From a virus (Duplodnaviria > Heunggongvirae > Uroviricota > Caudoviricetes): a stretch of 7,722 bases of DNA. The position numbers and the translations under genes were made by a program. Location of the stretch: IMG/VR virus record IMGVR_UViG_3300014846_000039; one strand, given 5' to 3'. The notes beneath the pieces are model-generated. The model had not been told where the DNA came from and did no database searches. It saw only the letters and a program-made list of their open reading frames with translations. Positions 427 through 7,391 of this stretch are shown one piece after another (the stretch's first letter is position 1; each line of letters starts with the position of its first letter).

Positions 427-441
427 TTGCCGGAGGCGCTT

Positions 442-867
442 ATGGCAAAAGTATTTACACAAGAAGAGCGGGAAAAAATTAAAGGGCAGGTTGTTGAACT
501 TGTACGTCTGAGCGGTCGCGAGACGTTGCGGCAACTGGAAGCCAAGACAGGTGCGACAAGATATCTGATGAGTGTTCTCGCCAGAGAGCTGGTTGCCAGT
601 GGCGATGTATACAACTCTGGTTACGGGTTATTCCCGTCTGAACAGGCGCGTAAGGACTGGCAAAATGCTCGCAAAAAACTCTCAAGGGCAAAGGTGAAGA
701 AACCTGCAGTGGTTGATCCGGACCTTATCTGGTCGTTACCAGACGGCGAAATACGCCGCTACGACAGGCGCCTGAACATAATCTGTCGCGAGTGCCGGAA
801 GAGCGAAGCTATGCAGCGTGTACTGGCATTTTATCAAGGAAATGTTAGGTATTTTAGACGTTACTAG
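442..867 (+). CDS. Hypothetical prophage protein (about 141 aa)
   Basis: ATG at 442 preceded by GGAGG at 432-436 (5-nt spacing); ORF track lists 427..867 from a TTG, but the ATG with this RBS is the more plausible start. Stop TAG 865-867. No family recognised. Confidence 0.55.
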   Translation: MAKVFTQEEREKIKGQVVELVRLSGRETLRQLEAKTGATRYLMSVLARELVASGDVYNSGYGLFPSEQARKDWQNARKKLSRAKVKKPAVVDPDLIWSLPDGEIRRYDRRLNIICRECRKSEAMQRVLAFYQGNVRYFRRY

Positions 868-1020
868 ATTAAAGAGCATTAGTTCAGATGTGAATTGACA
901 TTTTCATGGCGCAGGGTAGAGCCAGCGTGGTTGTCCGCTTTGCGTCAAAACCAGATATTACCAGATTTAGACATATATTCCCGATAGCCCTGCTCTGATG
1001 CTACACTCTGTGCTATTTTC

Positions 1021-1707
1021 ATGACCCCAATAAAAATATTTATGACTATTGCTGATTTCAAACGGCCTAAATTGGAGCTCCCAAACGGGGCAAACAAACT
1101 ACTACTGCACTCTTGCTGTGCTCCATGTTCCGGTGAAGTGATGGAGGCGCTTCAGGCCTCGGGAATCGACTACACCATCTTTTTCTACAACCCGAACATT
1201 CATCCTCAGAAAGAGTATTTAATTCGTAAGGATGAAAATATTCGCTTTGCTGAACAACACGGCGTGCCGTTTATCGATGCTGATTACGACACCGACAACT
1301 GGTTTGAACGTGCCAAAGGAATGGAATGGGAGCCTGAGAGGGGGATCCGTTGTACCATGTGTTTTGACATGCGTTTTGAGCGGACAGCGTTGTACGCTGC
1401 TGAAAATGGTTTCAGTGTGATCAGCAGTTCACTGGGCATTTCACGCTGGAAAAATATGCAGCAGGTTAACGAGTGTGGGCGGCGAGCTGTTGCGCATTAT
1501 CCGGGTATGGTGTACTGGGATTATAACTGGCGCAAGCAGGGCGGCTCGTCCCGTATGATTGAAATCAGCAAGCGCGAAAAATTCTATCAGCAGGAATATT
1601 GTGGCTGTGTGTATTCTCTGCGCGATACCAATCTACACCGCAAATCTCAGGGACGCCCTCTTATCAAAATTGGCCAACTCCACTACGGAAAAGAAGAGAA
1701 GGAGTGA
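1021..1707 (+). CDS. queH: Epoxyqueuosine reductase QueH-like protein (DUF208 family)
   Basis: 228-aa ORF with the N-terminal [11 protein letters not shown] cysteine motif and further conserved Cys (CTMCFD, CGC) that I associate with DUF208/QueH. No obvious Shine-Dalgarno before 1021; in-frame alternative start ATG at 1042. Assignment by motif memory only. Confidence 0.6.
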
Positions 1708-1945
1708 TTTTATGGATCACCTTTCTGATTGATTTCATATTGGCGAGGTGACGTGAGTTAAGTAGAATGGCTGCGGGGGGCTTGAGGCTATCTGTCTCAG
1801 GCATGAACACTGAAAGGCAGATAGAGAAAAGCCCCAGTTAACATTTCGCGTCCTGCAAGACGCTTAACATTAATCTGAGGCCCAATCTATGTCTCACAAA
1901 TGTAGGTTAGCCTCTTACGTGCCGAAAGGCAAGGGGAAGCAGGCT

Positions 1946-2209
1946 ATGAAGCAGCAAAAGGCGATGTTAATCGCCCTGATCGTCATCTGTTTAACCGTCA
2001 TTGTGACGGCACTGGTAACGAGGAAAGACCTCTGCGAGGTACGAATCCGAACCGGCCAGACGGAGGTCGCTGTCTTCACAGCTTTGCCAGGCATCCTCAA
2101 CGCACCCGCACTTAACCCGCTTCGGCGGGTTTTTGCATTAGTCTGGTTGACAAAAATAGAAAAATGCGAAAATATGTGGTTTACGAATTCTAAAAAAAGC
2201 GAAACTTGA
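1946..2209 (+). CDS. hokD: Hok/Gef-family membrane toxin, HokD(RelF)-like for the first 46 codons, with replaced and extended 3' end (possible pseudogene or variant)
   Basis: ATG 1946 with SD AAGGGGA at 1931-1937. Residues 1-46 (MKQQKAMLIALIVICLTVIVTALVTRKDLCEVRIRTGQTEVAVFTA) match HokD/RelF as I remember it; canonical Hok proteins are about 50 aa, but here the frame runs on to TGA 2207-2209 (87 aa) through a terminator hairpin and a promoter-like sequence. The ORF-track start at 1889 is in frame but upstream of the SD-supported ATG. Confidence 0.65.
   Translation: MKQQKAMLIALIVICLTVIVTALVTRKDLCEVRIRTGQTEVAVFTALPGILNAPALNPLRRVFALVWLTKIEKCENMWFTNSKKSET
2115..2134 (+). repeat. Direct repeat copy 1 (acccgcttcggcgggttttt), identical to 3950-3969
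   Basis: Exact 20-nt identity read directly from the sequence. Confidence 0.85.
2116..2134 (+). terminator. Rho-independent terminator-like hairpin (5-bp GC stem cccgc/gcggg, TTCG tetraloop, T5 run)
   Basis: Stem 2116-2120 pairs with 2125-2129, loop ttcg 2121-2124, T-run 2130-2134; lies inside the extended hok frame and just upstream of the cassette promoter-like element. Confidence 0.55.
2147..2176 (+). promoter_or_regulatory. Putative sigma70 promoter for the cassette (perfect -35 TTGACA, weak AT-rich -10)
   Basis: TTGACA at 2147-2152; about 17 nt downstream an AT-rich -10 candidate (aaatat 2170-2175); 35 nt before ATG 2211. The -10 is poor, so low confidence. Confidence 0.3.
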
Positions 2210-2210
2210 A

Positions 2211-2861
2211 ATGAATGAAAATCAGTTAGCTCCTTGTTGGGAATTTCAACCTTATCTTGCTGAAAACTATGTTCGCCACTTGTTGGCGGAGATCGCTAAC
2301 GTACTTGAGCAGCTGTACTATCATAAGCACGCATTAGACAGCAACTGGTCTGAAGGTGTAAGGGCTTATGATTGGGTCAGAAATCATCTTATTCAAAATG
2401 AAGATGCAATTCCTGGCCTTGAGATGATTTCCAAGGGGTTGGACTATGTAGTTGCTTTAAATAAAGTTCCGCTACAATTTACCAAAGATTGCATTAATAA
2501 CCCCAAAAAGAAACATCGTCTGCGTCGAAATAAAGTAGAGTATGAGCAGCTCTCATTGTTTGGTGATGTTGAGGCTGAGCAAGATATTACATGGCGAGTC
2601 ATAGCTGAGCCTTTTTTATCCGAAGAGGGCGATGGTGAATTAGAGTCCACACTGCCTCGTTGGGAGGTAGCTCTTGTTGGATTTAATACTTATGGTGCTC
2701 AGATTAGTATAGTTTCTCATCAATCTACAGCATCGATGCCGCTTATGCCTCTTGATTATAACACACTCCCTGACGAAGCGGAGATTAATAAGGTGCCTCT
2801 TCGTCGGCGTACGAAGGATAAAGATTTGGATGTGAGCAGTGATGGAACATCAGGTGAATAA
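2211..2861 (+). CDS. Hypothetical protein, 216 aa, no recognisable family; first gene of the inserted cassette
   Basis: ATG 2211, TAA 2859-2861; overlaps the downstream gene by 20 nt (operon-like). AT-rich codon usage (hand-counted samples about 33-38% G+C versus about 50% in flanking genes). No clear SD. Acidic protein with two basic patches (NPKKKHRLRRNK, VPLRRRTKDKD); no TM segment or catalytic motif recognised. Confidence 0.6.
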   Translation: MNENQLAPCWEFQPYLAENYVRHLLAEIANVLEQLYYHKHALDSNWSEGVRAYDWVRNHLIQNEDAIPGLEMISKGLDYVVALNKVPLQFTKDCINNPKKKHRLRRNKVEYEQLSLFGDVEAEQDITWRVIAEPFLSEEGDGELESTLPRWEVALVGFNTYGAQISIVSHQSTASMPLMPLDYNTLPDEAEINKVPLRRRTKDKDLDVSSDGTSGE

Positions 2862-3945
2862 CTTCACTGAGTATCGGGGTGATAAGCTCAAACTAGCGAG
2901 AATGGCTGTTGGGCTTTCTTGTGAAGAGTTAGCCGAAAAAATTGGCAAGACAAAGCAATTCGTTAGCAAACTGGAGAAGGGGTGCAGGCCATCGGAGCAA
3001 TGTCTTGAGTTAATATCTTCAGCGCTTATGATTAAGTCCAGTTTTCTTTTTACTGAACGAAAATACGCTCTGGAAAGTGATGTCTGCCATTTTCGGAGTA
3101 AGAAGTCCAGGACTCAAACGCTGACTAATAGTGTATTGGCCAGGGCTGAGATTCTTAATATTATAATTTCTGCTGTTGAAGGTGAAATCGAATTTCCTGA
3201 CGTTAACATACCGGAGCACCCAGGGGCTGAATTACTTACTCCGAATGATATTGAGCGAGTGGCAGAAGATTGTCGCCGTGCCTGGAATTTAGGTCTTGGC
3301 CCTATATCATCAATGGTTAAATTGGCGGAGAGTTTAGGGGTAATCGTTGCGCATGTTACGGGAGTCGATGATCGTGTTGATGCTTTTACTGTTCACAATA
3401 ACAGGCCTGTTATCATCAGGAACAATGTTAAAAAAAGCATATGTAGATTTCGCTCTGATTTAGGTCATGAATTAGGGCATTTAGTAATGCATGAGGGCAT
3501 AACGACAGGTGATAAACTTACGGAATCACAAGCCGATCACTTTTCGAGCGCCTTATTAGTTCCCAGGTTATCTTTCATTAAAGAATTTCCACGAATACGA
3601 GGTAAGCAATTCGACTGGAATGCTCTGGTTGAATTTAAACTTAGATGGAAAATCAGCCTTAAAATGTGTATTTATCGAGCCAGCGCATTAGGCTTATTGA
3701 CCCAGGAACAGGCAAGAACTGGCTATATGCATCTTAATTCCAGAGGGTATACGAGAGTTGAACCTGGTGATGAACTTTTGCGCCCTGAAGAACCCGGCAT
3801 GCTGGCCGAGGCGATTGAAATGCTGGATGATGCAACCTGGCTAAGAATTCTTATGAAAACTGGCTTGAGCCAAGATTTAATTCGTGAGTTGTTCTCCATC
3901 AACAGACCTATTACAAATCCAAGAAATATTTTCCAGATTGTTTGA
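2842..3945 (+). CDS. HTH_XRE DNA-binding domain fused to ImmA/IrrE-family (COG2856, M78-like) zinc metallopeptidase, with a C-terminal extension of about 110 aa
   Basis: N-terminal XRE-type HTH (LKLARMAVGLSCEELAEKIGKTKQFVSKLEKG); HEXXH zinc motif HELGH encoded at 3466-3480; downstream third-ligand motif typical of ImmA/IrrE (ESQADHFSSALLVP). ORF track starts at GTG 2839; the adjacent ATG at 2842 is preferred. Stop TGA 3943-3945, followed immediately by a terminator. Confidence 0.8.
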   Translation: MEHQVNNFTEYRGDKLKLARMAVGLSCEELAEKIGKTKQFVSKLEKGCRPSEQCLELISSALMIKSSFLFTERKYALESDVCHFRSKKSRTQTLTNSVLARAEILNIIISAVEGEIEFPDVNIPEHPGAELLTPNDIERVAEDCRRAWNLGLGPISSMVKLAESLGVIVAHVTGVDDRVDAFTVHNNRPVIIRNNVKKSICRFRSDLGHELGHLVMHEGITTGDKLTESQADHFSSALLVPRLSFIKEFPRIRGKQFDWNALVEFKLRWKISLKMCIYRASALGLLTQEQARTGYMHLNSRGYTRVEPGDELLRPEEPGMLAEAIEMLDDATWLRILMKTGLSQDLIRELFSINRPITNPRNIFQIV

Positions 3946-4054: not shown

Positions 4055-4276
4055 ATGGACCCCGAACAGGGGGAGTGCTATTTATCTGGAAGGATTCTGT
4101 TGATGAAAATCGAAGAATTACGTGAAATTTTTAGTGAAGATGGCCTCTATGCTGTGCGCGTTGAGAATGGGGGTATTACCTACACAGCGTTAATTCCTGA
4201 TGATCATGTAGTGTTATCTGTTGAGGCATTCATTGAATACTTGGAAAGACTCGGTTTCAAGGTAGTTCGGGAATAA
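4055..4276 (+). CDS. Hypothetical small phage protein (73 aa; 57 aa if started at ATG 4103)
   Basis: ATG 4055 preceded by purine-rich GGGAGAAGAGGG (4043-4054); alternative ATG 4103 preceded by GGAAGGA (4088-4094). Stop TAA 4274-4276. No family recognised. Confidence 0.5.
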   Translation: MDPEQGECYLSGRILLMKIEELREIFSEDGLYAVRVENGGITYTALIPDDHVVLSVEAFIEYLERLGFKVVRE

Positions 4277-4335: not shown

Positions 4336-4608
4336 ATGGCGCACAATACCAAACACCACAATTCTGATGCCGACCCTGCCAGCAGACACGGACGGCGCTC
4401 TCACGCATTCAAATATGACTGGTACCAGCATGACCAATGCACTGAAGAACAGGCCGAGTGGCTGATTCAGAATTACCGCAGACGTGGATACCAGTTTCAG
4501 AAAGGCCTCAGTCCTGACTTCCGACACTGGATAATTTCCGTCAGGCTCCCTTATTCCGAACGCCCGCCGCGTCCGTCCCGCACATATCAGCAACGCATCT
4601 GGAGGTAA
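4336..4608 (+). CDS. Hypothetical small basic protein (90 aa)
   Basis: ORF from the track; no clear SD; its stop TAA 4606-4608 is embedded in the RBS/start of the next gene, suggesting coupling. Positionally analogous to the small gene (rem) that I recall between hokD and ydfU in the K-12 Qin prophage, but the sequence was not recognised. Confidence 0.4.
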   Translation: MAHNTKHHNSDADPASRHGRRSHAFKYDWYQHDQCTEEQAEWLIQNYRRRGYQFQKGLSPDFRHWIISVRLPYSERPPRPSRTYQQRIWR

Positions 4609-5668: not shown

Positions 5669-6049
5669 ATGACCGAACGCATAGAATTTGTTTTGCCTTA
5701 CCCGCCGACGGTGAACACTTACTGGCGACGCCGTGGCAGCACATATTTTGTATCAAAAGCCGGGGAGCGTTATCGCCGGGCAGTGGCGCTTATTGTTCGC
5801 CAGCAGCGGCTGAAATTAAGCCTGTCCGGAAGGTTGGCAATAAAAATTATTGCAGAACCACCGGATAAGCGCCGCCGTGACCCGGACAATATTCTGAAAG
5901 CGCCGCTGGATGCGCTGACGCATGCGGGGTTGCTAATGGACGATGAGCAGTTTGATGAAATCAATATCGTTCGTGCTCAGCCAGTATCTGGTGGACGTCT
6001 GGGGGTGAAGATTTACCCCATAATGCTTGAAGGGCAGGTCAAAAAATGA
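5669..6049 (+). CDS. rusA: Holliday-junction resolvase RusA family
   Basis: 126-aa ORF with RusA-like blocks (LPYPPTVNTYWRR; DKRRRDPDNILKAPLDALTHAGLLMDDEQ; GGRLGV) comparable to E. coli RusA. Stop overlaps the next start (ATGA at 6046-6049). Confidence 0.85.
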   Translation: MTERIEFVLPYPPTVNTYWRRRGSTYFVSKAGERYRRAVALIVRQQRLKLSLSGRLAIKIIAEPPDKRRRDPDNILKAPLDALTHAGLLMDDEQFDEINIVRAQPVSGGRLGVKIYPIMLEGQVKK

Positions 6050-6702
6050 AACTGGAAGATTTACCGAAATACTACTCCCCAAAATCCCCCGGCCTGACTG
6101 ATGCATCGGCCTCAACGTCGAAAGATGCGCTGAGTATCACTGATGTGATGGCCGCGCAGGGCATGACACAGAATCGGGCTGAGATGGGGTTTTCTGCGTT
6201 CCTTGGGAAAATGGGCATTAGTATGAATGACAGAGAGCGGGCAACAGAATTGCTGACAGAATATGCACTCAGTCGGTGTGATCGCGTGGCGGCGTTAAGA
6301 AAACTCCCGGCAGAAATAAAACCGGTAGTGATGCGCATTATGGCTTCGTACGCTTTTGAGGATTATGCCCGCAGCGCAGCGAGTAAAAAGCAGTGCCCTT
6401 GTTGCTATGGGGAAAAATTTATTGAAAGCGTAGTTTTTACAAACAAGGTCCAGTATCCGGATGGTAAGCCGCCGGTATGGGCAAAGTGTACGAAAGGTGT
6501 GTATCCGTCTTACTGGGAAGAATGGAAAAAAAATCGGGAGGTGGTAAAAGTTGCCTGTCCGGAGTGTGGCGGAAAGGGTGAGGTTTCCACCGCCTGTAAG
6601 GATTGCCGTGGGCGTGGTGTCGCCATTCATCGTGAAGAGTCGGTAAAACGTGGTATGCCTGTTATCAGAGACTGCCAGCGTTGTGGTTGGTCGTGGCTGT
6701 GA
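6046..6702 (+). CDS. Late-gene antitermination protein Q family
   Basis: 218-aa ORF immediately after rusA (typical lambdoid order), with Cys-rich zinc-finger-like segments (CPCCYGEKF, CPECGGKGEVSTACKDCRGRG, CQRCGW) and followed by a promoter plus intrinsic terminator, as expected for Q / pR' / tR'. Confidence 0.75.
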   Translation: MKLEDLPKYYSPKSPGLTDASASTSKDALSITDVMAAQGMTQNRAEMGFSAFLGKMGISMNDRERATELLTEYALSRCDRVAALRKLPAEIKPVVMRIMASYAFEDYARSAASKKQCPCCYGEKFIESVVFTNKVQYPDGKPPVWAKCTKGVYPSYWEEWKKNREVVKVACPECGGKGEVSTACKDCRGRGVAIHREESVKRGMPVIRDCQRCGWSWL

Positions 6703-6873
6703 AAGGCTGCCATCAACGGAGGCATTTAATGCCATATGCAAAGTGACGAGTGCTATCACGCTTGATACGTGGAAAAAATCAGTGAAACGCTTTTACGATA
6801 CGTTGGTGGTTCGGTTTGACATTGAAGAGGCATGGGCGGAGCGGCAGTTAAAGAGGGTAACGCGATAGTGTTG

Positions 6874-6901
6874 TTGATTTTTCCCGAATCTGTGGTAAAT
6901 T
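6874..6901 (+). promoter_or_regulatory. Putative late promoter (pR'-like) with extended -10 (TTGATT, 16 nt, TGgTAAATT)
   Basis: -35-like TTGATT 6874-6879; TG at 6893-6894 then TAAATT 6896-6901; lies between Q and a strong intrinsic terminator. Sequence-only prediction. Confidence 0.35.
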
Positions 6902-6950
6902 TGCCCTAACGATGGGCGTTTTATGCCTGACGTTAGAAGAATTTTTACAC

Positions 6951-6972
6951 CCCGCCGCCTGGCGGGTTTTTT
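6951..6972 (+). terminator. Rho-independent terminator (tR'-like): 6-bp GC stem cccgcc/ggcggg, 4-nt loop, T6
   Basis: Stem 6951-6956 / 6961-6966, loop gcct 6957-6960, T-run 6967-6972. Confidence 0.6.
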
Positions 6973-7094
6973 ATGACTGAAATCGCGTCAGTACAGTAAA
7001 CGCGCTGGTGGCGGTGAATACCTGTCTTTCAGCTTGCTGGCTTTTTCGACAAGAGTTATTGGTGTGTCACGTTAACCGGAAAAGGGAAAAAGAC

Positions 7095-7292
7095 ATGCTG
7101 AAACAGCAGGATATGACCGAAACCGCCAGAGTGGTGTTTAATGAATTAAGTGCCACCGAACCGGCGACAGTCGGGGAGATTGCGCAGAATACTTACCTTT
7201 CACGTGAACGCTGCCAGTTAATACTGACCCAGCTTGTTATGGCGGGACTGGCAGACTATCAGTTCGGTTGTTACAGACGCCTTCAGTCCTGA
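7095..7292 (+). CDS. Small hypothetical protein (65 aa), possibly winged-helix DNA-binding
   Basis: ATG 7095 with AAGGGA-type SD at 7082-7087; ORF track lists a longer 7008..7292 version from GTG, which I consider less likely. The segment TVGEIAQNTYLSRERCQLILTQLVMAGLA resembles DeoR/MarR-like wHTH recognition helices (weak, by eye). Stop TGA 7290-7292 is inside a terminator hairpin. Confidence 0.45.
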   Translation: MLKQQDMTETARVVFNELSATEPATVGEIAQNTYLSRERCQLILTQLVMAGLADYQFGCYRRLQS

Positions 7293-7302
7293 AGGCTTTT
7301 TT
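7279..7302 (+). terminator. Rho-independent terminator (gccttca / gtcc / tgaaggc, T6)
   Basis: 7-bp stem 7279-7285 / 7290-7296, loop 7286-7289, T-run 7297-7302. Confidence 0.55.
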
Positions 7303-7391
7303 ATTTGTGGTAAATGGGCGGCTGGTGGGTGTTAGGGGCACTCACCAGCCATCTGCTCATGCGTCCGGATCACAAGCAAACCTCAGGCCCA

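What the first reader, a model, noticed from the sequence alone, without database searches (positions are those of the whole stretch)
1021..1707. Prophage-borne QueH-like (DUF208) gene with no convincing RBS
A tRNA-modification enzyme homologue sitting among phage early genes is not core phage machinery. Phages are known to carry 7-deazaguanine/queuosine-pathway genes for tRNA or DNA modification, so this could alter host queuosine status. Neither candidate start (1021 or 1042) has a Shine-Dalgarno, so expression may be low or depend on upstream transcription.
Basis: partly seen in the sequence, partly recalled or inferred. Interest (0 to 1): 0.4.

Follow-up and report, generated by a model that had tools for sequence, protein, structure and literature searches.

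The report
Prophage-carried QueH tRNA-modification enzyme gene
A lambda-like E. coli prophage carries an intact copy of queH, the vitamin-B12-independent enzyme for the last step of the tRNA base queuosine. The copy was taken, with its own promoter, from a related bacterium's chromosome, so lysogens probably no longer need B12 for that step.

Summary
ORF 1021-1707 is a full-length QueH (Pfam PF02677, E=1e-65). It is 31-33% identical to solved Thermotoga QueH, and the AlphaFold model superposes on it (TM 0.82). All six metal-binding cysteines are present.

The real start is almost certainly ATG 1042 (221 aa). Neither ATG has a Shine-Dalgarno, but that is not decay. The closest chromosomal orthologues (Scandinavium, Kluyvera, Enterobacter, Erwinia; 86-92% aa) also lack one. 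They share an extended -10 element (TGCTACACT, window 999-1007) about 40 nt upstream of the ATG.

DNA homology to the Scandinavium chromosome spans only window 992-1711, so the phage captured promoter, leader and CDS as a tight cassette. It sits in a variable cargo slot between the replication module (DUF977) and hokD.

The gene is in 995 of 5426 complete E. coli genomes, including O104:H4 and E. coli B. dN/dS between prophage alleles is 0.05, and every genome also has the B12-dependent queG.

Best reading: a lysogenic-conversion gene that makes epoxyqueuosine-to-queuosine reduction cobalamin-independent. There is no link to phage DNA 7-deazaguanine modification. RefSeq already annotates the gene, but I found no study of it. 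It is a new member of a known kind, of moderate interest.

The parts
1042..1707 (+). queH coding sequence (221 aa plus stop), the most likely true CDS. Cys codons: C25 1114-1116, C26 1117-1119, C29 1126-1128, C104 1351-1353, C107 1360-1362, C187 1600-1602, C189 1606-1608.
   Evidence: Pfam PF02677 E=1e-65. PGAP calls this start in E. coli genomes (WP_000150294.1). Orthologue N-termini align to it. The cysteines are invariant in 42 orthologues. The AF2 model's best PDB hits are TmQueH, TM 0.82. dN/dS is 0.05-0.06 against the second prophage allele.
1021..1041 (+). Seven in-frame codons from an upstream ATG (MTPIKIF). A possible but unlikely N-terminal extension; more probably part of the 5' leader.
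   Evidence: The ORF list gives 1021 as the first ATG. The ATG is kept in the E. coli B/HannyBb allele, but no equivalent conserved ATG exists in chromosomal orthologues, whose proteins start at the 1042 equivalent.
999..1007 (+). Extended -10 promoter element TGcTACACT (inferred). The predicted transcript start is about 1012-1016.
   Evidence: The same 9-mer lies 31-35 nt upstream of the ATG in Erwinia, Symbiopectobacterium and Enterobacter chromosomal queH, and TGCTACAAT in Scandinavium and Kluyvera. A TAnnnT hexamer lies at -45..-37 in 31 of 46 Enterobacterales-like loci, against a mean of 5.5 (max 11) in control windows. It is perfectly conserved between the two prophage alleles while the leader varies. 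The generic sigma-70 scan did not call it because the -35 is weak. There is no experimental TSS.
1008..1041 (+). SD-less, AU-rich 5' leader.
   Evidence: The anti-SD duplex is +0.7 kcal/mol. Region 1014-1080 folds weakly (MFE -4.8 kcal/mol, z=+0.76) with the start codon unpaired. No Rfam family or riboswitch matches.
992..1711 (+). Segment homologous at DNA level to a chromosomal queH locus. This is the captured cassette: -10, leader and CDS, ending 4 nt after the stop.
   Evidence: blastn against the Scandinavium chromosome (L012) gives 84.3% over window 992-1711 and nothing beyond. Other chromosomal loci match only within 1029-1711. The Scandinavium, Erwinia and Providencia contexts are non-phage.
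926..1713 (+). Module shared between the two prophage alleles of queH (the window type and the E. coli B/HannyBb type). The flanks differ on both sides.
   Evidence: blastn gives 92.9% over 926-1713 against L002/L003, with unrelated DNA on each side: a methyltransferase fragment upstream and about 370 extra bp downstream. Among IMG/VR prophage contigs the left mosaic boundary varies (1, 432, 735, 864, 971, 978).
427..867 (+). Upstream neighbour: DUF977 / Ren-like protein, the end of the replication module. It forms the left edge of the cargo slot.
   Evidence: Pfam PF06163 E=7e-28. PHROG phrog_142, Ren-like. No terminator-like site lies between it and queH.
1740..2084 (+). Downstream neighbour: the hok/sok type I toxin-antitoxin locus, comprising a promoter-like site 1740-1768, the sok/hok leader 1776-1951 and hok from 1946. 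It forms the right edge of the cargo slot.
   Evidence: Rfam RF01794, 116 bits. Promoter-like TTGGCG-17-TAGAAT. Pfam HOK_GEF. The queH-hok linkage is kept in the IMG/VR loci.

Best explanation
Window 1042-1707 encodes a functional, cobalamin-independent epoxyqueuosine reductase (QueH, an iron-sulfur enzyme). It reduces epoxyqueuosine (oQ) to queuosine (Q) at position 34 of tRNA-Asp, -Asn, -His and -Tyr.

A lambdoid (Rac/Qin-like) phage captured the gene from the chromosome of an Enterobacteriaceae relative. What it captured was a minimal cassette: an extended -10 promoter, an SD-less leader and the CDS. The cassette sits in a variable cargo slot between the replication module and hokD.

Every E. 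coli already has QueG, which needs cobalamin, and E. coli cannot make cobalamin de novo. The prophage copy therefore most likely works as a lysogenic-conversion ('moron') gene that lets the lysogen complete Q synthesis without B12. With no terminator upstream, it would also be transcribed with the early-right operon during lytic growth.

Shown here: family membership, intact cofactor ligands, purifying selection, chromosomal origin, cassette boundaries, conserved upstream element, and universal queG.

Inferred: the enzymatic activity, promoter activity in lysogens, SD-independent translation from 1042, and any physiological benefit.
For: Identity:
- Pfam QueH matches full length at E=1e-65.
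- TmQueH matches at E=8e-22 with 31-33% identity.
- The AF2 model (pLDDT 76) has the five TmQueH entries as its top PDB hits, TM 0.77-0.82.
- C25, C26, C104, C107, C187 and C189 are invariant.

Origin:
- The protein is 80-92% identical to chromosomal QueH of Scandinavium, Kluyvera, Enterobacter, Erwinia and Providencia, all in non-phage contexts.
- DNA homology is limited to window 992-1711.

Selection:
- dN/dS is 0.046-0.060 at dS 0.27-0.29 between the two prophage alleles.
- All 80 best IMG/VR copies are 100% identical in protein.
- The gene is intact in prophages that are otherwise decaying. In this window Q is frameshifted and hok is truncated. The E. coli B Qin-like remnant has several pseudogenes.

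Expression signals:
- The TGnTAnnnT element is conserved at about -40 in chromosomal orthologues and in both prophage alleles.
- The nearest orthologues share the SD-less leader, and the leader is unstructured.

Redundancy with QueG:
- queG is in 5426 of 5426 genomes and queH in 995 of 5426.

Literature:
- QueH is a non-orthologous, iron-dependent and cobamide-independent replacement of QueG (PMC5372724; PMC6461909; PMC13443448).
- E. coli QueG is cobamide-dependent (PMC11841063; the title of Frey et al. 1988 as cited).
Against: - No activity, transcript or protein data exist for this copy.
- The promoter is inferred from conservation only. It has a poor -35 and the generic sigma-70 scan missed it.
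- Without an SD, translation efficiency is unknown.
- The residue matching TmQueH Asp13, which structural biologists have mutated (9dco, D13N), is Cys here. The Thermotoga mechanism therefore cannot be transferred residue for residue, although 104 of 108 motif-bearing family representatives also have Cys.
- Corrinoids are usually available in the gut, so the benefit of B12 independence may be confined to particular niches.
- Whether oQ and Q differ in decoding is not established.
Confidence: 0.72

Rival explanations
1. The gene is a functional oQ reductase that serves the phage rather than the host. It would be transcribed mainly from the early-right operon after induction or infection, raising Q levels to tune translation of phage or host genes during lytic growth.
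For: The gene lies in the early-right transcription unit, in the same orientation, with no terminator between DUF977 and queH. It is carried by an isolated phage, HannyBb. A Shewanella preprint reports that phage infection raises Q at the expense of oQ through queG induction, so the oQ-to-Q step can respond to infection.
Against: The prophage genes are not enriched in NAU codons relative to the host flank (0.56 against 0.63). A conserved promoter element was captured along with the gene. The gene stays intact in prophages whose late functions are broken, which points to selection in the lysogen. The two roles do not exclude each other.
Confidence: 0.15
2. The gene is a silent or barely expressed passenger. 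It was captured by chance, is not translated efficiently because it lacks an SD, and has no physiological effect.
For: There is no SD at either ATG. The generic scan finds no sigma-70 promoter. queG already supplies the activity in all E. coli.
Against: Purifying selection is strong between prophage alleles (dN/dS about 0.05 at dS about 0.28). The gene is intact in 80 of 80 IMG/VR copies and covered at 80% or more in 985 of 995 genomes. The SD-less leader and the -10 element are also features of the chromosomal orthologues, which are ordinary non-phage genes.
Confidence: 0.08
3. The gene is part of a phage 7-deazaguanine DNA-modification or anti-restriction system, or otherwise acts on a substrate other than tRNA-oQ, for example as a defence or counter-defence factor in a cargo hotspot.
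For: Phages do use preQ0-derived bases in DNA (PMC6884629). The slot and its neighbourhood hold defence-type cargo: RosmerTA just downstream, hok/sok, and relBE in K-12.
Against: No DpdA/TGT-like gene and no FolE, QueD, QueE or QueC is present in the window or the O104:H4 prophage. QueH has no PADLOC match. At 80-92% identity to chromosomal QueH, with every invariant residue kept, neofunctionalisation is unlikely. Hutinet et al. found no QueA, QueG or QueH in phages that carry DNA-modification clusters.
Confidence: 0.05

Closest known systems
QueH (DUF208 / PF02677 / IPR003828) epoxyqueuosine reductase; solved example Thermotoga maritima QueH (PDB 7lc5, 7lc7, 9deu)
   Same: Full-length domain match, the same fold (TM 0.82) and the same six cysteines in CC...CxxC...CxC order. 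Presumably it catalyses the same cobalamin-independent oQ-to-Q reduction on tRNA.
   Different: Only 31-33% identical. The Tm Asp13 position is Cys (CCAPC instead of CCAPD), as in most family members. A 19-residue N-terminal and roughly 25-residue C-terminal extension are shared with proteobacterial orthologues. This copy is encoded on a prophage.
Chromosomal QueH of Enterobacterales (Scandinavium 92%, Kluyvera 91%, Enterobacter 88-90%, Erwinia 86%, Providencia 84% aa identity)
   Same: Orthologous protein of the same length and start, with the same extended -10 element about 40 nt upstream and the same SD-less leader in the closest relatives.
   Different: Those genes sit in ordinary chromosomal neighbourhoods: purL-queH-glrK in Erwinia, tmcA-DUF441-queH in Providencia, and SDR/MBL/Hcp genes in Scandinavium. 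This copy sits between a phage replication module and hok/sok, and it moves with prophages.
[quoted passage not shown]
   Same: Same reaction and same tRNA substrates. Present in the same cells (queG in 5426 of 5426 E. coli genomes).
   Different: Not homologous. QueG needs a corrinoid cofactor that E. coli must import, whereas QueH is described as iron-dependent and cobamide-independent.
Phage 7-deazaguanine clusters (DpdA with FolE/QueD/QueE/QueC, +/- QueF, ArcS, Gat-QueC) that modify phage DNA
   Same: Both are phage-borne genes drawn from the queuosine/7-deazaguanine pathway.
   Different: Those systems make preQ0-type bases and insert them into DNA with a DpdA transglycosylase. No such genes occur here. 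The survey of those phages reported no QueA, QueG or QueH (PMC6884629). This is a single late-pathway tRNA enzyme.
Lambdoid prophage 'morons' / lysogenic-conversion cargo genes
   Same: A single non-phage gene in a variable slot, present or absent among prophages with the same backbone, apparently with its own promoter, and retained in defective prophages.
   Different: No terminator of its own lies between the stop (1707) and the hok promoter (1740). The cargo is a housekeeping-type tRNA-modification isozyme rather than a virulence, exclusion or defence gene.

Membership tests
QueH (PF02677, epoxyqueuosine reductase) | Full-length match to the family profile above the curated threshold | tested here: met
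   PF02677: 221.5 bits against a cut-off of 23.5, profile positions 1-174 of 175, E=1.1e-65.
QueH (PF02677, epoxyqueuosine reductase) | Same fold as solved QueH | tested here: met
   The AF2 model (pLDDT 76, pTM 0.77) has 7lc5, 7lc7, 9d86, 9dco and 9deu as its top five PDB hits, with target-normalised TM 0.77-0.82 and rmsd 2.9-4.0 A. The next hits (TtuA, LarE) are far weaker.
QueH (PF02677, epoxyqueuosine reductase) | Six conserved cysteines (CC...CxxC...CxC) that hold the iron-sulfur cluster and adjacent iron | tested here: met
   C25, C26, C104, C107, C187 and C189 (221-aa numbering) align with the six Cys of TmQueH and are invariant in 42 orthologues. Their role as ligands comes from the published structure, recalled from memory; the paper was not held.
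QueH (PF02677, epoxyqueuosine reductase) | Acidic residue at the TmQueH Asp13 position (CCAPD) | tested here: not met
   The residue is Cys29 (CCAPC) here and in all close orthologues. This is not a family-wide requirement: of the 150 best 50%-identity cluster representatives, 108 carry the CCAP motif, and of these 104 have Cys, 3 have Asp and 1 has Leu. So it separates a Thermotoga-type subgroup and does not exclude membership.
QueH (PF02677, epoxyqueuosine reductase) | Converts oQ-tRNA to Q-tRNA without cobalamin | not testable with these tools
   Needs complementation of a queG deletion strain and LC-MS of tRNA nucleosides.
QueH (PF02677, epoxyqueuosine reductase) | Evolves under purifying selection as an orthologue of chromosomal QueH | tested here: met
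   dN/dS is 0.046-0.060 between prophage alleles and 0.014-0.034 against Scandinavium, Kluyvera and the L010 locus. Identity to chromosomal orthologues is 80-92% aa.
Prophage moron / lysogenic-conversion cargo | Dispensable insert that is present or absent among prophages sharing the same backbone | tested here: met
   The DUF977-to-hokD slot holds queH in 995 of 5426 genomes. It holds flxA/ydfV/relBE in K-12 Qin and other hypothetical genes in strains GU2018_CL13 and 4973.
Prophage moron / lysogenic-conversion cargo | Own promoter active in the lysogen | tested here: inconclusive
   A conserved extended -10 (TGCTACACT, 999-1007) is shared with chromosomal orthologues. The -35 is weak, the generic scan does not call it, and no TSS data exist.
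Prophage moron / lysogenic-conversion cargo | Own transcription terminator | tested here: not met
   No terminator-like site lies between the queH stop (1707) and the hok promoter-like site (1740-1768). The only one in 700-2300 is at 2114-2131, after hok.
Phage 7-deazaguanine DNA-modification system | DpdA/TGT-like DNA transglycosylase encoded by the phage | tested here: not met
   None among the window ORFs scanned with Pfam, nor among the annotated features of about 29 kb of the O104:H4 prophage.
Phage 7-deazaguanine DNA-modification system | preQ0 synthesis genes (FolE, QueD, QueE, QueC) in the phage | tested here: not met
   None in the window or in the annotated prophage regions.

The most novel reading that the evidence does not exclude
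A temperate phage changes its host's tRNA-modification chemistry. By carrying a self-promoted queH cassette, Rac/Qin-like prophages would make roughly one E. coli genome in five, including O104:H4 and the B/BL21 lineage, independent of imported corrinoids for Q34 formation. K-12-type strains would be left with epoxyqueuosine when B12 is scarce. If so, the Q/oQ status of E. coli tRNA would be a strain-variable, prophage-determined trait, and retention of queH in decaying prophages would reflect host-level selection in B12-poor niches.
Probability: 0.45. Interest if true: 0.55.

Novelty: new member of a known kind. Interest (0 to 1): 0.4.

Why it matters
E. coli is the reference organism for the B12-dependent last step of queuosine synthesis. 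About 18% of complete E. coli genomes turn out to carry a second, non-homologous enzyme on a prophage, among them the outbreak strain O104:H4 and the E. coli B lineage used for protein production and experimental evolution.

If the gene is active, tRNA from these strains grown without B12 should carry Q where K-12 carries oQ. That would matter for comparing tRNA modification, codon-specific translation and recombinant expression between strains.

It would also be a clear case of a phage capturing a late-pathway tRNA-modification gene together with its native promoter. A published survey of phage 7-deazaguanine genes found no such gene, and the phage protein-family resource PHROGs still lists this family (phrog_3217) as 'unknown function'.

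The practical lesson for annotation is narrower. A missing Shine-Dalgarno is an ancestral trait of this gene lineage, not evidence of a dead gene.

Tried and rejected
- **Riboswitch or other structured RNA upstream of queH.** An Rfam scan of the whole window at E<=1 found only sok/hok (1776-1951) and one chance snoRNA hit. Leader sequences are not conserved between genera. Rejected.
- **Generic sigma-70 and terminator scan of 700-2300.** No promoter was called upstream of queH and no terminator after it. The promoter proposal therefore rests on comparative evidence only.
- **NAU-codon enrichment in phage genes as a reason to carry a Q enzyme.** The prophage scores 0.56 and the host flank 0.63. 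No support.
- **Defence-system membership of QueH.** No PADLOC hit.
- **NCBIfam.** No model matched QueH, although PGAP names the protein QueH.
- **Phage collection.** Only one near-identical phage record exists (HannyBb). The other tblastn hits are 30-79% identical and come from unannotated faecal 'Bacteriophage sp.' contigs or very large 'phage' records that look bacterial. I did not count them as evidence of phage carriage.
- **Literature.** Eight full-text searches (QueH + prophage; epoxyqueuosine reductase + QueH + E. coli; QueH + 4Fe-4S + Thermotoga maritima; the QueH structure-paper title; epoxyqueuosine + cobalamin + QueG; DUF208; epoxyqueuosine reductase + phage; QueH whole word) found no paper on an E. 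coli prophage QueH. Several hits were surname or acronym artefacts.
- **Key primary papers not held.** Zallot 2017, Li 2021 and Frey 1988 could not be read. Statements about their content rest on my own knowledge, on their titles, and on how held papers cite them.
- **ATG 1021 as the start.** Considered and judged unlikely, because orthologues start at the 1042 equivalent and upstream ATGs are not conserved in position or frame.
Full report
**1. The observation**

The window has an ORF from ATG 1021 to the stop at 1705-1707 (228 aa), with a second in-frame ATG at 1042. The product matches Pfam QueH (PF02677) over the whole profile, positions 1-174 of 175, at 221.5 bits against a curated cut-off of 23.5 (E=1.1e-65). 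By sequence it matches the solved Thermotoga maritima QueH (7lc5) at E=8e-22.

An AlphaFold2 model was built on 42 orthologues (mean pLDDT 76, pTM 0.77). Its five best PDB matches are the five TmQueH entries, with target-normalised TM 0.77-0.82. The next matches, TtuA and LarE (PP-loop/adenine-nucleotide-hydrolase folds), are far behind.

The six cysteines of TmQueH align with C25, C26, C104, C107, C187 and C189 in 221-aa numbering. All six are invariant in the orthologue alignments.

The one difference from Thermotoga is at Asp13, a residue that structural biologists have mutated (PDB 9dco is D13N and 9d86 is C9S). That position is Cys29 here (CCAPC). This is not peculiar to the phage copy. 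Every close orthologue has Cys there. Of the 150 best 50%-identity cluster representatives, 108 carry the CCAP motif; 104 of those have Cys, 3 have Asp and 1 has Leu.

**2. Start codon and ribosome-binding site**

The best duplex between the 22 nt upstream and the 16S 3' end is +0.9 kcal/mol for 1021 and +0.7 for 1042. Window genes with an obvious SD score -8.2 to -10.6.

The start is most likely 1042. RefSeq/PGAP uses it (WP_000150294.1, 221 aa). The N-termini of chromosomal orthologues align to it: [14 protein letters not shown] here, MTNPAFKRAKLELP in Erwinia and MSTAPFIRPQLTLP in P0002. Upstream ATGs in other loci are not conserved in position or frame.

**3. The missing SD is ancestral, and the gene brought a promoter with it**

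I collected 80 genomic loci encoding close relatives from one genome per species. Only the Escherichia loci have phage neighbours.

The closest non-phage copies are Scandinavium (92% aa), Kluyvera (91%), Enterobacter (88-90%), Symbiopectobacterium (87%) and Erwinia (86%). Where I checked the context it is ordinary chromosome:
- purL-queH-glrK in Erwinia;
- tmcA-DUF441-queH in Providencia;
- SDR, metallo-beta-lactamase-fold and Hcp genes in Scandinavium.

These nearest relatives also lack an SD, with duplex energies from +0.7 to -1.5 kcal/mol. More distant ones such as Serratia have GAGGTGAGG at -7.6.

About 40 nt upstream of the ATG the nearest relatives carry the same extended -10 element as the window (TGCTACACT, 999-1007):
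- TGCTACACT in Erwinia, Symbiopectobacterium and Enterobacter quasihormaechei;
- TGCTACAAT in Scandinavium and Kluyvera;
- TGCTAAAAT in L010.

A TAnnnT hexamer starts at -45..-37 in 31 of 46 Enterobacterales-like chromosomal loci. Control 9-nt windows in the same upstream regions average 5.5 with a maximum of 11. The figure for other taxa is 2 of 34. The TGn extension is present in 15 loci.

In Erwinia the element follows the purL terminator, as expected for an independent transcription unit. The two prophage alleles conserve the element perfectly while the leader between it and the ATG varies.

The predicted leader (about 1014-1041) is AU-rich. The region 1014-1080 is essentially unstructured (MFE -4.8 kcal/mol, z=+0.76, start codon unpaired). 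That is the kind of site at which SD-independent initiation is known to work; this last point is established knowledge, not tested here.

No Rfam family, and in particular no preQ1 or cobalamin riboswitch, matches the region. The generic sigma-70 scan does not call the promoter because the -35 is poor. The promoter remains an inference from conservation.

**4. What was captured, and where it sits**

DNA homology between the window and the Scandinavium chromosome runs from 992 to 1711 (84%) and stops there. Other chromosomal loci match only inside 1029-1711. The cassette is thus the -10 element, the leader and the CDS, ending 4 nt past the stop, with no terminator.

A second prophage allele is 94% identical in nucleotides and 96-97% in protein. 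It occurs in E. coli B and in the isolated phage HannyBb. It shares 926-1713 with the window but has different DNA on both sides.

IMG/VR holds 190 viral contigs with relatives. The best 80 are all 100% identical in protein, and their left mosaic boundaries vary (window 1, 432, 735, 864, 971, 978).

The insertion slot lies between the DUF977/Ren-like gene that ends the replication module and hokD. It is a cargo hotspot:
- K-12 Qin carries flxA, ydfV and relBE there;
- strain GU2018_CL13 carries two hypothetical genes;
- strain 4973 carries another.

**5. Distribution and selection**

The gene is in 995 of 5426 complete E. coli genomes, and 985 of them cover at least 80% of it. These include O104:H4, in a prophage next to ompW bounded by integrase and excisionase, and E. 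coli B. The genus representative of E. albertii also has it.

queG, the cobalamin-dependent enzyme, is in 5426 of 5426 genomes. QueH is therefore an addition, not a replacement.

Between the two prophage alleles dN/dS is 0.046-0.060 at dS 0.27-0.29. That is strong purifying selection while the gene has been phage-borne.

In several prophages the surrounding phage functions are decaying while queH is intact:
- In this window the antiterminator Q has a +1 T frameshift and hokD has lost 56 bp.
- The E. coli B element is a remnant with several pseudogenes.
- The O104:H4 prophage has frameshifted head genes.

**6. How it most likely works**

Established knowledge, and how held papers describe it:
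- QueA makes epoxyqueuosine on tRNA, and QueG or QueH reduces it to queuosine (PMC5372724).
- QueG needs cobalamin, and E. coli has it as one of four cobamide-dependent enzymes (PMC11841063).
- The cobamide dependence of oQ reduction in E. coli was the subject of Frey et al. 1988 (title cited; the paper is not held).
- QueH is a non-orthologous, iron-dependent, cobamide-independent alternative (PMC6461909; PMC13443448).
- That E. coli cannot make corrinoids de novo is established knowledge.

Putting these together, the prophage copy should let a lysogen finish Q34 without imported B12. It would be transcribed from its own promoter in the lysogen. Because no terminator separates it from the replication genes, it would also be transcribed from the early-right operon after induction.

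Activity, promoter use, translation from 1042 and any fitness effect are all inferred.

**7. Rivals**

- A phage-centred role in the lytic cycle is possible and does not exclude the above. A Shewanella preprint shows the oQ-to-Q step responding to infection. Against it, the prophage genes are not NAU-enriched (0.56 against 0.63 in the host flank), and retention in defective prophages argues for selection in the lysogen.
- A silent passenger is hard to square with dN/dS of about 0.05.
- A role in phage DNA 7-deazaguanine modification is not supported. No DpdA or preQ0-synthesis genes are present. QueH has no PADLOC match. The published phage survey found no QueA, QueG or QueH in such phages (PMC6884629).

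**8. Comparison with what is known, and novelty**

The protein is a bona fide QueH and RefSeq names it so. PHROGs has the family as phrog_3217, 'unknown function', with a profile that starts at residue 34 and so lacks the CCAPC motif. HannyBb annotates it as hypothetical.

I found no paper on a prophage-borne QueH in E. coli in eight full-text searches. The library lacks most subscription journals, so this is not proof of absence.

I rate it a new member of a known kind: a known enzyme in a new, mobile setting, with a testable physiological consequence. Interest is moderate at 0.4. The identity is unsurprising. The prevalence in well-used strains, the promoter-plus-gene capture and the B12 angle are worth one experiment.

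Noticed in passing
window 2084/2085 (hok, 1946-2209): hokD has a 56-bp deletion relative to strain S1-CAM-02-A, K-12 Qin and O104:H4. It removes the last five codons, the stop and a downstream GC-rich hairpin. The ORF now reads ...VFTA followed by 41 unrelated residues, up to 2209. The sok/hok leader (Rfam RF01794, 116 bits, 1776-1951) and the promoter-like site 1740-1768 are intact.
   Followed up: partly
window 2211-2861 and 2839-3945: The two overlapping genes match the RosmerTA anti-phage defence pair in PADLOC (RmrT E=4.6e-25; RmrA E=6e-105, an HTH plus ImmA/IrrE peptidase). They are inserted between hok and DUF968 relative to the O104:H4 prophage, in a lower-GC stretch (about 0.40-0.44).
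   Followed up: partly
window 6046-6868 (near 6687): Antiterminator Q is split by a single extra T (GTGGTTGGTCG against GTGG-TGGTCG in two related prophages). This leaves ORFs 6046-6702 and 6650-6868, both of which hit Pfam Antiterm. The prophage in this window is probably defective for late gene expression, unless this is a sequencing error.
   Followed up: partly
slot between DUF977 (ends 867) and hok promoter (1740); loci L003, L004, L171, L172: This position is a variable cargo hotspot in Rac/Qin-like prophages. It holds queH here, flxA/ydfV/relBE in K-12 Qin, two hypothetical proteins (weak HEPN/RES-NTD and GNAT hits) in GU2018_CL13, and a 340-aa hypothetical in strain 4973.
   Followed up: partly
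L003 (E. coli B-RalR, NZ_CP117043.1) 6706-7371: The E. coli B lineage carries an intact queH allele (WP_021568046.1) inside a heavily decayed Qin-like remnant. B-derived laboratory strains may therefore differ from K-12 in the B12 dependence of queuosine formation.
   Followed up: no
window 1042-1704 against PHROGs: phrog_3217 ('unknown function') is this QueH family (E=1.7e-138), but its profile begins at residue 34. The phage gene calls behind it seem to start at an internal Met and omit the CCAPC motif, which may be why phage annotators do not recognise the family.
   Followed up: no
Genome-contig loci L052-L090: This QueH clade is unusually conserved: 75-81% aa identity between the E. coli prophage copy and Sphingomonas, Stenotrophomonas, Neisseriaceae, Pseudomonas and Paracoccus. 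A few records carry implausible organism labels for such a sequence (Bacillus subtilis SK7B5, 'Candidatus Avacidaminococcus'), which suggests contamination or mis-binning.
   Followed up: no
window 4055-4276 and 4336-4608: Two small ORFs with a good SD (orf73) or only PHROG matches (phrog_340, phrog_1212; unknown function) lie between RosmerTA and DUF968. In strain S1-CAM-02-A the corresponding region is interrupted by IS629 and a group II intron.
   Followed up: no
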